Shown here: in pieces, positions 7,784-16,589 of the stretch
Layout: the number at the start of each line of letters is the position of its first letter
Position numbering within the stretch: the stretch's first letter is position 1
DNA from: Okamejei kenojei
Taxonomy: Eukaryota
DNA: 64,000 nt
Direction of reading: 5' to 3'
Assembly (NCBI GenBank): GCA_035221665.1
Contig: CM069174.1
Coordinates: forward strand, 8,494,001-8,558,000
The notes under the pieces: generated by a model
Told to the model about the DNA's origin: nothing
What the model saw: only the letters and a program-made list of their open reading frames with translations
Databases searched by the model: none
Program-made: the position numbers and the translations under genes

Positions 7784-9310
7784 GTAAGAACCCCTTCAGA
7801 AGTTTTTTTAAAATATATCCTTCATTTAAACTGAAAATGCTGTGAACACTCAGAAACAGAGTTAGCTTTGGAAAAAGCAAATAAATTGCAGATGCTGGAA
7901 ATCTGAAATTAAAACCAGAAAATGCTGGAAATACTCAGTATTTGTGGGGAGGGAAATCTGTCACAATCGAACCAGCGAATTGCTTCCAGCATTTTGATTT
8001 AATCAGTTCTGCCTTGAAATGTGAACACTGTTTCTCTCTCCATTTGAATTGTGAATTCCAAGCGTACAGTTTTTATTTCAGATTTCCAGCATCTGCAGGA
8101 TTTTGCTTTGGTTGTTAACAAATGCCTGCGGGTTCAGGTAACGTTCAACGCTTTTAACGGCAATGTATTCTGCTGAGCACCCATAAATAATCTTCCAAGG
8201 CTTTGCTGCTTGGGAACGAATAATTATTAGTTGGGGGGAAAAAAGGTACAAAGATACAAAGAAGCTCAGCAGATCAGGCAGCTCCTCTGGAGGGAATGGA
8301 CAGACGATGTTTCAGGTCAGGAACTCTTCTTCAGGTTGAAGAAGGTTCCCAACCCAAAGCGTCACCCATCCATGTTCTCCAGAGACGTTGCCTGACCCGC
8401 TAAGTTACTCCAGCACTTGCGATCGAACCCGGTTCTCTGGCAATGTGAGGCAGTAGCTCTACCAGCTGCACCACCGAGCCATCCTAAGAGACAGGGGAAA
8501 CGAATGGAGCTCCCATTTCCGTACAATTCGAGGATTTGGGGATGCAGAATAAAGAGTGAGGCATAGAAATACTGGGAATGTGAGGAAAGAAAGGGGGAAG
8601 GACTTTGCAGGGATACGCGAAAGAGGTTAGAGTTTGGGGTTGTGGCAAATCAAACGGATTGCATTCGTCCACAAGGAGCTAGCATGGGTTCTCTGGGCTG
8701 AATGGTCTTTTTTCTGTGCTGCAATAATTCTATGATTTTATATGTTGCTGTCCTTGAGGAAAATTAATAAAGCAGTAACAGACACTGAGACTTTCTGGCT
8801 TAAATTCTGCAATAGTTGCCGGGTCACAGAAGATGCAGATTGTAGCTTTAAAATATACTTCAAAGCTGTGTTCTGATGTCTACATTGCACAACGGTCAGG
8901 ACATTGACATAAAATGTTATAAATACAGATGTTGAAAGCAGAAGCATGTCTGTGTGTCTTTATAGAGTTGGCAAGGTGTCCACACGATAACAAATACAAC
9001 AATGTCCAGAACTATTGTGTTTGCGGTATATTCCAGACAGCCACACTGTATTAGATGCACATTCCATTCCCCATGACATTCTTAAGTACAGGCACATATT
9101 GCAAACATCTGTCATTAAGTTTGAAAATCAGAGACAGTAAGCATGGGAGAAGCATTTCTTGTTTGCATGTTAACTAGCTGCATTCAACGTTCAAAGACTT
9201 TTGTAACAGCTGCAAGTTAGTGAGAACTTATGTGCATCCAGAACGAGCTCCACAGTGGCGCAGCTGCTAGAGCCATTGCCTCACATCTCGCGATCCTGAC
9301 ATCGGGCGCT

Positions 9311-9445
9311 TCTTCTTTCGTGTGCCGTGCACGGCCTAAAGTTGTTGGACAACTTGTTCTATTTGATCTTCCGTTTGTGCACATCGAGTTGATTGCATTA
9401 GTCGAAACAGGGCGGACCACGTGCAGGTTGCAATCTTCCACCCCC
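9311..9445 (-). mobile_element. ~135-bp ribozyme-headed mini-retroposon, copy B
   Basis: Homologous to 15887-16022; (GAA)n-like tail; TSD ACATCGGG(C/T)GCT at 9299-9310 and 9446-9457. Confidence 0.85.
9391..9444 (-). ncRNA. HDV-like (CPEB3-type) ribozyme fold, copy B
   Basis: GGGGUGG-AA-GAUUGCA-ACC-UGCACGU-GGU-CCGCCCU-GU-UUCGA-CUAA-UGCAAUC; P1, P2 and P3 all pair; L3 has one substitution relative to copy A. Confidence 0.75.
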
Positions 9446-11959: not shown

Positions 11960-12089
11960 GTTTGGCCGTGCAGCTCAAAGAAGCTTAGACTCTGGCACTG
12001 AGCCTCAGATACACTACCGGGACTGGGAAATCATTCCGTCACAGATCTGGAGCATGACCATGCCACAACGGTTTGGAAAGAAGAAATAA
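11960..12089 (+). CDS. NPFF: Pro-neuropeptide FF exon 3 (completes the NPFF-like peptide; encodes the NPAF-like peptide)
   Basis: tttag|G+[42 protein letters not shown]; two PQRF-G-basic amidation/cleavage sites; 132-aa precursor with the longer exon 1. Confidence 0.95.
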
Positions 12090-12240
12090 TGGAACTGGAC
12101 GTCCAAAACAAGAGATTGAGCATTCTTCCGCAATAGCTCAACTCGACTTAGAAGCTATTTGTCAATTAAACACCTCCAAATATTGTGCTTCTAGAAATTT
12201 GTTCACTTGTGATACATATACCTGTCTTAATGAACTGTTA

Positions 12241-12246
12241 AATAAA
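12241..12246 (+). terminator. NPFF: NPFF polyadenylation signal
   Basis: AATAAA about 150 nt after the stop codon. Confidence 0.7.
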
Positions 12247-14732
12247 AGTGATATTTAGTGAATTGCTTTACTTATTGGAGATTCTATTCCCAAACCAGCC
12301 CTTGCCAACACTTCAAAGAAATGTGTTTTTTTAATGGGCAAACTCCAGGTTGGAGACTTGTATTTCTATAGTGCTTTTCACACTGTAGGCATATTTGCAT
12401 TTTAAATCTTTCATTCATCCATGTCATTCCGAACATTCATAAAATTACTTGGAACATTTTGATCATATATGCCCATGGTGATCGGTACAAATGGAGAGCC
12501 CGCAAGGTCTTGTGTTCTGATATTATCAGCTAACCTTGTTACCTCATAATTCAGCATTAGTGTGCCTAATTACAAATACATAGCTAAGATGCAGAGGCAT
12601 TCTGGAGGGCCAGACAGCAACATGTTTTTTTGGGCCCCATTTGTCAGTCAGAGGTTAGTTAATCTGTGGAATTCATTGTCACAGAGGGCTGTGGAGGTCA
12701 AGTCAGTGGATATTTTTAAGGCAGAGATAGACAAATTCTTGCTTAGAACGGGTGATAAGGGTTATGGGGAGAAGGCAGGAAAATGGGATTAGGAGGCAAA
12801 GATCAGCCGTGATTGAATGGCAGTGTAGACACGATGGGCTGAATGGCCTAATTCTACTCCCCTAACCTGTGAACTTGTGAACAGCACTGAAACATGCACG
12901 GATGCTACAATGGGGGATAAGCAGAGCAGAGACATTTCTCCTGCGTTCCTTCAAAGTTTTGACAGCATTGTGCATGTGGAGGAAGAGGCAAGGTTTTATT
13001 GTTCAGTCTTGGGATGTGGGGGTCATCCAAATTGTACAAGCTCCAGTTAAGCTCTCAGTTATACAATCAGGCCACCTGAATGGGTTTTGAGCACAAACAC
13101 ACACACACACACATCTAATTCAGCAGCATGTATGCAACCACTTACCCACCAATGCCTCACGTTGAGCTTCTGCCTGACAACCATCACATGACAAACAGCA
13201 TCTAAACTTTGAACTTCAAACTCTCCTTGTTGCACTAGGGACTTCTAGGGATTTATTGAACTTTTTTGTTTGGTTTATTATGTTAGCTATTGAATACTGT
13301 GCAAACAAACCTGTTATGCTGCTGCAAGCAATAACTTCATTGTTCCGTTTCGGTATATTTGACAATTAGACACTCTTGACTCTTGTACCTAAATCAAACA
13401 ATCAAAGGGAACATTGGAAAAGCACTCAAAAGGTCTCAATGAAACCAGGTGGTGCGAGGACTCTGAGACCCGAGATTGGAAACCTATCCCAGAGGAACTC
13501 AGCAGGTCAGGCGGCATCTATGGAGGGAAATGGACAGGCAACGTTTTGGGTTGGGACCTTTCTTCACATTGGCTGAACCAGTGTGAAGAAAGATGGGCGG
13601 CACAGTGGCTATCACAACGTTTAAGAAACATTTAGGCAGGTTCATGGATCGGATAGGTTAAGAGGGGCATGGACCAAAAACAGGCAAGTGGGACTAGTGC
13701 AAATGGGACATGTTGGTCATTGTGGGCAAGTTGGGCCAAAGGGCCAAAGGGTTGCACAGAGCCCCTCGCACAGCAAAATACTTCTGTTTATTTAGGATGA
13801 TCATTGAAAGAATTCCCCTACCTGCTGCAGTTTGGCCTTGCTGCAGCTTGCGAAAGAAAGATTATTCCTAAGGTCAGGCAATACCCAGGTGGAAAATACA
13901 CCTCACCAGTTCACGTTGGGAACATTTGGAAGGGTTTAATGGTCCCACTGGAAAAAGGCTGAATCGTCCATCTCAGTTTGTGAATGCGTTTAAACATCAG
14001 GACATAGATTAACATTCAGCTCTCCCCAAAGAGCACCTAATAATAAAACTAATAATAACTGAGGTATACTAATCAGCATCCATTAATGGTTTCTGTACTT
14101 AGCTGTCCAAAGAGTCACACGTCTGTTTTGAGAAGAGAATTGAAAGCTAATTGGGGTGTGCTAAATCCTACTGAAAGCATGATCAATATAATCTGATCAT
14201 GATCAATGTAATATCAATACAATATAACTCAGCCAAGAGTTAATCACGATGGGCAGTGCTTTTATTGTGACGGTCGATACATACAGGTAAAAGGTTAGAA
14301 AACAGATTTTAAAATGTTTAGAACTTTATTTTTATGCTCTTCATTTTAAATTATCAGTCAATTAGAAATTGGTTGGTCACAAAATCAAAACAGAATGGGG
14401 GAGGGGGTGGGGATGTATTGATGGAAAAAAAAAATCTGTGGATAAATATAGCTTAATTTTTAATTGATACGCGACTGGTACAAGAAAAGCACCGATGATG
14501 GGTAAAGAGAGAGCTACCGTCACGGACACCGCACTCCACTGGGGACTAGAGAACTCCGCGGTTACAGCGCTAGAGACCCGCTAGTCAATCCTGACTTACG
14601 GGTACGGTCTGTACGGAGTTTGTACGTTCTCCCCGTGTCCTGCGTGTTTTTTCTGCGGGAGCTCCAGTTTCCTCTCACACTCCAAAGACGTACAGGTTTA
14701 CAGGTTAATTGGCTTTGGTTAAATTGTAAATT

Positions 14733-15176: not shown

Positions 15177-15886
15177 ATATTGTCCCTAGTGTGTAGGATA
15201 GTGTCAGTGTGTGGGGAACGCTGGTCGGCGGGGGCTCGGTGTGCCGAAAGGCCTGTTTCCATGCTGTATCTCTAAACTAAACTAAACTCAGGATGAAGCG
15301 TCACCCATTTCTCTCCCGAAATGGTGCCTGTCCCGCTGAGTTACTCCAGCATTTTGTTTAATTGTTCCGTTTTGGGACATGTGACAATAAACCCTCTCGC
15401 CTCTTTCTCTTCCTCACCATCAGAACGAATGGTGCCCTTAAATCCGAGTCAGGTTTAACCTGGGACAAATTTACTGAAGTTGGTGCTCTGTCACCGGACT
15501 CCAAGAAGGGACCTAGTGGAATGCTGTTGTGGGACAGTGGTGTGGACCTCAGAGAGAGCTTGTATTTTCATGATTAACCCTCGGTATTATGGATCAGCAA
15601 CCGGGTTCTCCCTGCAAAATAAATTGGTGTATCGTTCAGCTAAAACGTGTGCTGCTGCTCAGAGCGGCACAATAGCACCACTCACAGGAAAGATTTAATA
15701 TGACCGTGTGTTTTGTAACAGGGAAAGTTAAAGCTCATCTTATGTAAAACCAAATACAGAAAAACTATTGACAGATAATGTAGGACATGTAGATAATGTA
15801 GAATATAAAATCATCAATATCAGATAAGGTTTTTTTAAAATGTGATAAAAGGAAATATGTTGTTAAGCTGGAAAGACTGCAGAGAA

Positions 15887-15940
15887 GGGGTGGAAGATTG
15901 CAACCTTCACGTGGTCCGCCCTGTTCCGACTAATGCAATC
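15887..15940 (+). ncRNA. HDV-like (CPEB3-type) ribozyme fold, copy A
   Basis: P1 GGGGUGG/CCGCCCU with G1-U wobble; P2 GAUUGCA/UGCAAUC; P3 ACC/GGU; L3 UUCACGU; J4/2 CUAA; almost no P4. Confidence 0.8.
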
Positions 15941-16022
15941 AACGCGACGCGCACAAACGGAAGATCAAATGGAACAAGTTGTCCAACAACTTTAGGCTGT
16001 GCACGCCACACGACAGAAGAAG
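15887..16022 (+). mobile_element. 136-bp ribozyme-headed mini-retroposon, copy A, inserted in a CR1/L2 fragment
   Basis: TSD AAGACTGCAGAGAA at 15873-15886 and 16023-16036; AGAAGAAG tail; homologous copy at 9311-9445. Confidence 0.85.
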
Positions 16023-16589
16023 AAGACTGCAGAGAAGATTTGCAAGGATGTTGCCAGGACTTGAGGGTCTGAGCTATAGGTTGGACATGCTAGGACTGTA
16101 TTCCTTGGAGCGCAGGAGGCTGGGGATTTGGGGGGGGGGGGGTGATCTTGTAGAAGTTTATAAAATCATGAGGGGAATAGATAGGGCGAACCAGAGGGCA
16201 TAGGGTTAAGGTGAGAGGGGAAAGATTTAATAGAACGAGCTGCCACTTTAACTCACACCAAGCTATTCGTGGTGCATTGGCGACCTCTAGTGATGAGAAT
16301 CCTGATAATGCTCAGAGTAGATTAAATGCTAACAATTTTGCAGTCTGAAGAAAGATCCCGACCCGAAACGTCACCCATCCTTTTTCCCAGAGATGCTGCC
16401 GGACCCACTGAGTTACTCCAGTACTGTGTGTCTGTCTGTAATGCAACAATTAATCCACGTTGAGCAAACAGGACAATATTCTCTCAGAATCCCGAGGGCG
16501 ATCGGCCTATCACACAAATACCGCTTCTTTGGGTAGAGATTCGACTCATTCCCATTCCCTTGCGCCTTCTTAGGGCCTTGGATTTTTTC

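What the first reader, a model, noticed from the sequence alone, without database searches (positions are those of the whole stretch)
15887..16022. A 136-bp retroposon whose head is a compact HDV/CPEB3-like ribozyme
Seen: the first 54 nt fit an HDV-like nested double pseudoknot. P1 is GGGGUGG/CCGCCCU with the G1-U wobble, P2 is GAUUGCA/UGCAAUC, P3 is ACC/GGU, L3 is UUCACGU and J4/2 is CUAA, with P4 nearly absent. The 14-bp TSD ends immediately before G1, and the element ends in a GAA-repeat tail. Known: HDV-like ribozymes cut just 5' of G1 and define the 5' ends of R2, RTE and L1Tc retrotransposons; CPEB3 has the same L3; R2-derived SIDEs in Drosophila are non-autonomous ribozyme-plus-3'-end elements. 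Inference: a promoterless SINE-like family that cuts itself out of host transcripts and is mobilised by a LINE partner, possibly RTE-clade. This copy is sense to NPFF read-through, about 3.6 kb past the NPFF polyA signal. I do not know of such a family described in cartilaginous fish but cannot exclude it.
Basis: partly seen in the sequence, partly recalled or inferred. Interest (0 to 1): 0.92.

Follow-up and report, generated by a model that had tools for sequence, protein, structure and literature searches.

The report
Self-cutting mini-retroposon from a Vingi LINE
A 136-base jumping element, present in tens of thousands of copies, is just the two ends of a longer retrotransposon; it starts with an unusually small, CPEB3-like self-cutting RNA fold that probably frees it from host transcripts, though cutting has not been tested.

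Summary
15887-16022 is one copy of a family of about 28,000 (95% range 10,000-60,000), with a 14-bp target-site duplication. Its first 54 nt fit the full HDV-like fold without P4 (1 chance hit in 125 Mb); the best Rfam match is CPEB3, below the gathering score. 5' ends pile at G1.

The partner is not RTE. Nt 1-79 and 93-136 are the 5' and 3' termini of a 3-kb single-ORF APE+RT LINE of Vingi type in the same genome. So this is an internally deleted, bipartite non-autonomous LINE, like NARTc/RIME or SIDE, not a true SINE. Related LINE families carry the same fold with compensatory changes, and one has its own short derivative.

Cleavage, lack of a promoter and NPFF read-through are untested. The element type is known. 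I found no report of ribozymes in Vingi or of a P4-less HDV-like ribozyme in a vertebrate; Repbase and Dfam could not be checked. The scan had not noted this family before.

The parts
15873..15886 (+). 5' target-site duplication (14 bp; 15 if G1 is counted as shared)
15887..15940 (+). P4-less HDV-like ribozyme fold (P1, P2, P3, L3, one-pair P1.1, 5-nt loop for P4, J4/2); predicted cut 5' of G1 at 15887
15930..15930 (+). predicted catalytic cytosine C44 (C75 of HDV, C57 of CPEB3); C in 85 of 88 short copies and 21 of 22 LINE heads
   Evidence: role by analogy, PMC4836649 passages
15941..15965 (+). rest of the LINE 5' UTR portion (element nt 55-79)
15966..15978 (+). 13-nt junction: apparent 8-nt duplication of the end of the 5' part plus 5 nt of unknown origin
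   Evidence: read from the aligned copies
15979..16022 (+). LINE 3' terminus: last codons and TAG stop (15993-15995) of the ORF, short 3' UTR, GAA tail
16023..16036 (+). 3' target-site duplication
9309..9444 (-). second copy of the family (93% identical; U21G change, fails the strict descriptor)
15845..16200 (+). older high-copy LINE fragment into which this copy inserted (context; CR1-like label recalled from its translation)

Best explanation
A bipartite non-autonomous retroposon made by internal deletion of a 3-kb Vingi-type LINE: LINE nt 1-79, a 13-nt junction, and the last 44 nt of the LINE (shown). The first 54 nt are a minimal HDV-like ribozyme with a CPEB3-type core and no P4, inherited from the LINE (fold shown by comparison; activity inferred). 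Model: a copy is transcribed within a host Pol II transcript or from a weak internal promoter; the ribozyme cuts just 5' of G1; the LINE protein binds the retained ends, nicks DNA, primes on the GAA tail and copies to the RNA end, giving G1-to-tail inserts with ~12-bp TSDs (inferred from known non-LTR biology). Many genomic copies are decayed; a few source copies drove an older and a younger wave.
For: Family: 1984 candidates, the 40 scored are 96-100% identical and near full length; 6 short copies in 600 kb of unselected DNA. Fixed 5' end: 28 of 30 loci fetched on the tail alone (40 scored; one is the query copy) start at nt 1-3, one more is G1-start but interrupted, one is truncated at nt 25. 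Contigs of 4 runs show loose ends at exactly 15887 with unrelated flanks (402/138/30/42 contigs, agreement 0.33-0.37). TSDs in 72 of 82 copies starting at nt 1-3, median 12 bp; 53 of 72 abut or share G1; only 5 of 72 have an extra G. Partner: tail shared with 6 of 6 LINE 3' ends and 2 of 3; head runs into the LINE in 18 of 18 fetched 5' ends and none shares sense sequence upstream of G1; one copy spans G1 to tail over 3043 bp with an 8-nt direct repeat (L208/L223, middle not fetched whole). Covariation: family B head vs this one has 3 of 7 P1 and 4 of 7 P2 pairs changed on both sides with identical spacing; family D changes P2, P3 and P1.1 likewise. LINE-to-short change U5-A32 to U5-G32 keeps the pair, and all 4 copies with C5 have G32.
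Against: No cleavage data: only contigs were available, no raw RNA reads. Rfam scores are below gathering. 0 of 6 unselected copies and the second window copy pass the strict descriptor; 51 of 78 complete heads in a set biased to young copies are intact. U29C, breaking the first P3 pair, recurs in 5 of 86 copies. Only 4 of 18 LINE heads start exactly at G1; the rest are trimmed by 1-15 nt, and 11 of 18 have antisense LINE sequence upstream. Family C has U at the apparent catalytic position in 3 of 3 copies. No intact ORF was seen among 45 candidates scored. A precise 5' end also follows from an internal promoter. The clade name rests on architecture and recalled motifs, not a tree with named references.
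Confidence: 0.72

Rival explanations
1. Same bipartite Vingi-type derivative, but the 5' end is set by an internal promoter in the head; the P4-less fold is slow or vestigial and serves mainly as a protective cap or protein-binding site.
For: Pr77 of L1Tc/NARTc is an internal promoter as well as a ribozyme (PMC3383444, PMC1874656, abstract starts). None of the assayed T. brucei and T. congolense SIDER heads cut, including two with adequate predicted folds (PMC4035085 passages). One-pair P1.1 and a very short P4 loop. Recurrent U29C. Family C lacks the catalytic C.
Against: C44, U20, G25 and J4/2 adenines are kept in LINE and short families, and across families B and D whose helices have turned over. 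An extra G at the 5' junction, expected from capped templates (recalled from L1), is rare: 5 of 72. Natural P4-less ribozymes of 56 nt are active (bioRxiv 2023.06.13.544163).
Confidence: 0.2
2. A Pol III SINE with a tRNA/5S-like head that only resembles a ribozyme.
For: Short length, G-rich start, and a partial B-box-like word near nt 37-46 (seen by eye; consensus recalled).
Against: No tRNA by ARAGORN and no tRNA or 5S hit in Rfam. The head is the 5' UTR of a protein-coding LINE. The spacing of putative A and B boxes looks too short (by eye). Descriptor chance rate about 1 in 125 Mb.
Confidence: 0.04
3. The element is mobilised by an RTE-clade LINE.
For: An RTE-type family (DUF6451, 908 candidates) is present and also ends in GAA repeats.
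Against: No similarity of either end to 30 RTE-type loci, which cover mostly the 3' part of that family. Both ends match a different LINE; its full-length relative P0003 is only about 24-30% identical to that RTE-type family over longer matches, has no DUF6451 hit and carries a C-terminal CCHC motif.
Confidence: 0.04

Closest known systems
Bipartite non-autonomous Vingi derivatives (Vingi-1_EE deletion derivatives; Vingi-2_ACar parts in SINE2-1_ACar)
   Same: 5' plus 3' termini of a single-ORF APE+RT LINE without RNase H, joined by internal deletion (PMC5786205 introduction and section 23).
   Different: [quoted passage not shown] No tRNA head, unlike SINE2-1_ACar. Repbase entries could not be compared.
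NARTc/RIME/SIDER (L1Tc/ingi clade, trypanosomatids)
   Same: Short non-autonomous derivative that starts with an HDV-like ribozyme cutting 5' of +1 (PMC4035085 passages); sister clade.
   Different: L1TcRz has a P4 helix and Pr77 has shown promoter activity; here the host is a vertebrate, P4 is absent and neither activity is tested.
R2-derived SIDE elements (Drosophila)
   Same: Ribozyme plus 3' end left by internal deletion (PMC3414825, title and abstract start).
   Different: R2 is rDNA site-specific with a ~184-nt ribozyme region (PMC6765202 passage); this family is dispersed with ~12-bp TSDs.
Mammalian CPEB3 ribozyme (RF00622)
   Same: Identical L3, one G-C plus U-U in P1.1, U20/G25, same numbering through U38; best Rfam match.
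   Different: CPEB3 has a P4 stem, different P1/P2/P3 sequences and sits in an intron of one gene; score 21.3 vs gathering 35.
Minimal HDV-like (drz-Mtgn) and theta ribozymes
   Same: No P4 domain, about 54-56 nt (bioRxiv 2023.06.13.544163).
   Different: Reported from gut metagenomes and phages, often next to tRNAs; that search found no theta hits in human, mouse or protist genomes. Here it heads a vertebrate retroposon.

Membership tests
HDV-like ribozymes | Nested double pseudoknot: P1, P2, P3, P1.1 in the right order | tested here: met
   compensatory changes across families B and D
HDV-like ribozymes | G1-Y pair, U20 and G25 in L3, catalytic C first in J4/2 followed by N-R-A | tested here: met
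   features from PMC6326823 and PMC4836649 passages (that descriptor uses CRRA; the Rfam HDV consensus has CUAA)
HDV-like ribozymes | Mg2+-dependent self-cleavage 5' of G1, lost on C-to-U change | not testable with these tools
   no assay; no raw RNA reads
Rfam CPEB3_ribozyme RF00622 | Score at or above gathering 35 bits; P4 stem present | tested here: not met
   21.3 bits, P4 absent
Minimal (P4-less) HDV-like ribozymes | No P4 domain | tested here: met
   5 nt between U38 and C44 in short copies and LINE heads
Theta ribozymes | Phage context, frequent adjacency to a tRNA 3' end, published motif | tested here: not met
   no tRNA in the window; eukaryotic retroposon context; the exact motif (figure and closed supplement) was not run
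Bipartite non-autonomous LINE | 5' and 3' termini of one autonomous LINE, ORF deleted, own TSDs | tested here: met
Vingi clade (partner) | Single ~1000-aa ORF, APE + RT, no RNase H | tested here: met
   full-length relative P0003, 1019 aa, 67% identical to the partner fragment; partner copies match along it in pieces; criteria from PMC13708176 and PMC3708506 passages
Vingi clade (partner) | RT phylogeny grouping with named Vingi elements | not testable with these tools
   no named Vingi reference was available (searches gave none); motif resemblance is recalled
RTE clade (partner) | Ends shared with an RTE LINE; DUF6451 marker (marker recalled) | tested here: not met
Pol III SINE (tRNA/5S/7SL head) | Head derived from a small RNA gene with an internal Pol III promoter | tested here: not met
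   head is LINE 5' UTR

The most novel reading that the evidence does not exclude
Vingi-type LINEs are the natural home of the CPEB3-type ribozyme core: the same L3, G-U after P1 and CUAA occur here without P4 and, with P4, at the 5' end of a related LINE family in unrelated metagenome contigs. The mammalian CPEB3 ribozyme would then be the kept head of an ancient Vingi/Ingi-type insertion (a Vingi fossil, X12_LINE, is listed for human in PMC5753468), and this family would be an active minimal vertebrate ribozyme scattered at tens of thousands of sites, able to cut host pre-mRNAs where it lies in sense. The shared core is short and partly forced by function, so convergence remains more likely than descent.
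Probability: 0.2. Interest if true: 0.88.

Novelty: new variant of a known kind. Interest (0 to 1): 0.64.

Why it matters
(1) Kojima 2018 (PMC5786205) names four LINE clades that make ORF-less bipartite derivatives, lists ribozymes for three, and leaves open why. Vingi was the gap; here Vingi-type families carry HDV-like heads and two have spawned ribozyme-headed short elements, which makes the link testable. (2) Natural P4-less HDV-like ribozymes were described from gut metagenomes and phages; a 54-nt vertebrate one with a CPEB3-type core is a ready substrate for mechanism work and a lead on CPEB3's origin. (3) Vingi UTRs are used in RNA gene-writing platforms (PMC13708176, which mentions no Vingi ribozyme in its 8 uses of the word). 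A natural 136-nt cis-sufficient template, and a self-cleaving 5' UTR, bear on template design. (4) Thousands of potentially live ribozymes could affect host transcripts.

Tried and rejected
Rfam over 3 kb: no ribozyme hit. Nested folding: uninformative. RTE-type family as partner: rejected. tRNA/Pol III head: rejected. Head-only and tail-only genome searches returned only short copies, no LINE; the partner came from a tail-only hit in unselected DNA. A protein search with the decayed 53-aa C-terminus found nothing. Two LINE copies walked upstream were 5'-truncated at about 1 kb. MAFFT misaligned the cross-family heads, so pairs were read by coordinates. The substitution table omits sites near contig ends and was not used as evidence of invariance. 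PDB, cluster names and the ESM Atlas gave no clade name.

Full report
OBSERVATION. The element lies at 15887-16022 (+) between identical 14-bp repeats at 15873-15886 and 16023-16036, inside an older high-copy LINE fragment (CR1-like by recall). A generic HDV-like descriptor hit only this site in the window and once in 125.4 Mb of Markov control; swapped-base controls gave 0 in 664 kb (written with the element in view). Rfam missed it in 3 kb. On 71 nt it ranked CPEB3 first (21.3 bits, gathering 35), then two other HDV models. ARAGORN found no tRNA.

FAMILY. The genome search gave 1984 candidates; the 40 scored are 96-100% identical over nearly the full length. A second copy lies at 9309-9444 (-). 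Sixty unselected 10-kb regions held 7 hits, 6 short copies and 1 LINE tail, giving about 28,000 copies (95% range 10,000-60,000). Copies fall into a younger group (mean 2.4% from the majority among 71 ranked copies) and an older one (5 of 11 unselected copies, 11-15%, with a more LINE-like tail). Runs from 8 studies and 6 organism labels hold over half of the sampled words.

5' END. Of 30 loci fetched on the tail alone (40 scored; one is the query copy), 28 start at nt 1-3, one starts at G1 but is interrupted by a later insertion, and one is truncated at nt 25. Of the 6 unselected copies, 4 start at nt 1, one at nt 2, and one is cut by the sample edge. Contigs from four runs have loose ends at exactly 15887 with unrelated flanks (402, 138, 30, 42). 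TSDs were called in 72 of 82 copies starting at nt 1-3 (9-18 bp, median 12; some calls allow mismatches): 37 end just before G1, 16 include G1, 12 leave one extra base (G in 5), and 7 are otherwise offset.

PARTNER. An RTE-type family also ends in GAA repeats but shares nothing with the element in 30 loci. The tail-only hit in L175 ended a decayed ORF with a C-terminal Cys/His motif. That LINE has 731 candidates for its 3' end, and 6 of 6 fetched 3' ends share the element's last 26-42 nt. A 132-aa stretch found a 1019-aa relative, P0003 (67% identical; APE + RT, no RNase H or DUF6451 hit, CCHC C-terminus), which located near-full-length copies. Their 5' ends carry the element's head running on into the LINE (18 of 18 fetched). 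Element nt 1-79 align to the LINE start and nt 93-136 to its end, including the stop codon, with a 13-nt junction. One copy spans 3043 bp from G1 to tail with an 8-nt direct repeat (L208/L223). Four of 18 LINE heads start exactly at G1 and the rest lack 1-15 nt; 11 of 18 have antisense LINE sequence upstream, as in 5'-inverted copies, one joined exactly at G1; none shares sense sequence upstream of G1. No intact ORF was seen among 45 candidates scored. A single ~1000-aa APE+RT ORF without RNase H fits Vingi as described in PMC13708176 and PMC3708506 (passages). No named Vingi sequence was available, so the clade name rests on architecture and recalled motifs.

STRUCTURE EVIDENCE. Within the family, C44 is kept in 85 of 88 short copies and 21 of 22 LINE heads. 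The main LINE-to-short differences in the head fall in J1/2 (nt 8) or keep a pair (U5-A32 to U5-G32; 4 of 4 copies with C5 have G32); the loop (nt 40) and the free J4/2 position (nt 45) vary. Against: U29C recurs in 5 of 86; 51 of 78 complete heads are intact; none of the 6 unselected copies passes the strict descriptor. Of 6 loci upstream of more distant P0003-like ORFs (35-40% identity), all 6 carry HDV-like heads in three families. Family B (L202) is a textbook fold with P4 and the same 7-2-7-3-7-3-7 spacing, with 3 of 7 P1 and 4 of 7 P2 pairs changed on both sides. Family D (2 decayed copies, one mismatch each) changes 4 of 7 P2 pairs, one P3 pair and the P1.1 pair to U-A. Family C (3 copies) has the helices but U at the apparent catalytic position. 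Family B has its own ~205-bp bipartite derivative (6 of 6 loci fetched). In metagenome contigs, 4 of 13 loci reaching the N-terminus of a related ORF have a head with the same or nearly the same L3, G-U and CUAA plus P4 (two are near-identical, P1 looks 6 bp, and the generic descriptor missed them).

MECHANISM. Shown: bipartite origin, fixed G1 boundary, TSDs, conserved and covarying fold. Inferred: self-cleavage from a host or read-through transcript, then target-primed reverse transcription by the Vingi-type protein in trans (by analogy; PMC6765202 passages). The main rival is an internal promoter with a slow or vestigial fold, as Pr77 has both roles and several SIDER heads were inactive. 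The NPFF-like exon and AATAAA 3646 nt upstream exist, but nothing shows read-through or makes this copy special.

COMPARISON AND NOVELTY. Ribozyme-headed bipartite retroposons are known (NARTc/RIME/SIDER, SIDE), and so are Vingi deletion derivatives (PMC5786205: first 10,000 characters, passages and section 23 read). That paper does not list Vingi among ribozyme-bearing clades. A search for Vingi + ribozyme gave 6 papers: three concern alpha-synuclein (listing only) and the passages read in the other three do not place a ribozyme in Vingi. None of the 15 listed of 1,334 papers (needing any 3 of 5 terms) mentions Vingi, a weak search. Searches showed no vertebrate P4-less example in their listings. 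The theta preprint (parts 1 and 3 of 5 and passages) reports minimal ribozymes from phages and no theta hits in human, mouse or protist genomes. Ruminski 2011, Webb 2009, Kojima 2011, Repbase, Dfam, patents and two supplements could not be seen and may already hold this family or Vingi ribozymes. Other papers seen as passages only: PMC4035085, PMC4836649, PMC6326823, PMC5753468, PMC3391268, PMC4494074. The scan's earlier notes hold no look-alike; one fungal ribozyme-headed retroposon note is a different element.

VERDICT. Real, well supported, a new variant of a known kind. Confidence in the full ribozyme mechanism 0.72; interest 0.64.

Noticed in passing
L304-L309 (e.g. L305:39-245); LINE ends L202:244-345 and L310:289-316: A second bipartite short family (~205 bp) with a P4-containing HDV-like head, derived from a younger-looking Vingi-type family B (top head matches 96-100% identical); its P4 differs from the LINE's but still pairs.
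   Followed up: partly
L204-L221: 11 of 18 LINE 5' ends have antisense LINE sequence just upstream (twin-priming-like inversions), often joined within 5 nt of G1; a high rate, though the set was chosen by head similarity.
   Followed up: partly
window 15948-15955 and 15998-16005: The 5' and 3' parts carry the same palindromic GTGCAC core in the family majority and the LINE, so the two ends can form an 8-bp helix (this copy has one change); it may be why both ends are kept.
   Followed up: no
L200:294-365, L201, L203: Family C heads keep P1, P3, L3 and P1.1 but show U where the catalytic C is expected in 3 of 3 copies.
   Followed up: partly
L198, L199:283-363: Family D heads use a U22-A37 pair with C21/C38 in P1.1, an unusual variant.
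   Followed up: partly
L191:399-534: A young short copy inserted into the endonuclease region of its own partner LINE.
   Followed up: no
L175:3189-3337; also L197: A ~150-bp element with inverted ends (MITE-like) inserted at the LINE stop codon; a similar insertion sits at the same site in a second copy.
   Followed up: no
L014, L015, L051-L054 (C1 177.7-177.8 Mb): Several copies share flanks: one insertion multiplied by local duplication, counted once.
   Followed up: yes
L187: Decayed RT/RNase H plus tyrosine-recombinase-like frames (DIRS-type by recall) upstream of a truncated LINE copy.
   Followed up: no
window 12063-12250: RFamide (NPFF-like) precursor last exon on + with an AATAAA at 12241.
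   Followed up: partly
L111:268-1329: Another Vingi-type fragment (36% to P0003) with a GAA tail, next to an RTE-type copy.
   Followed up: no
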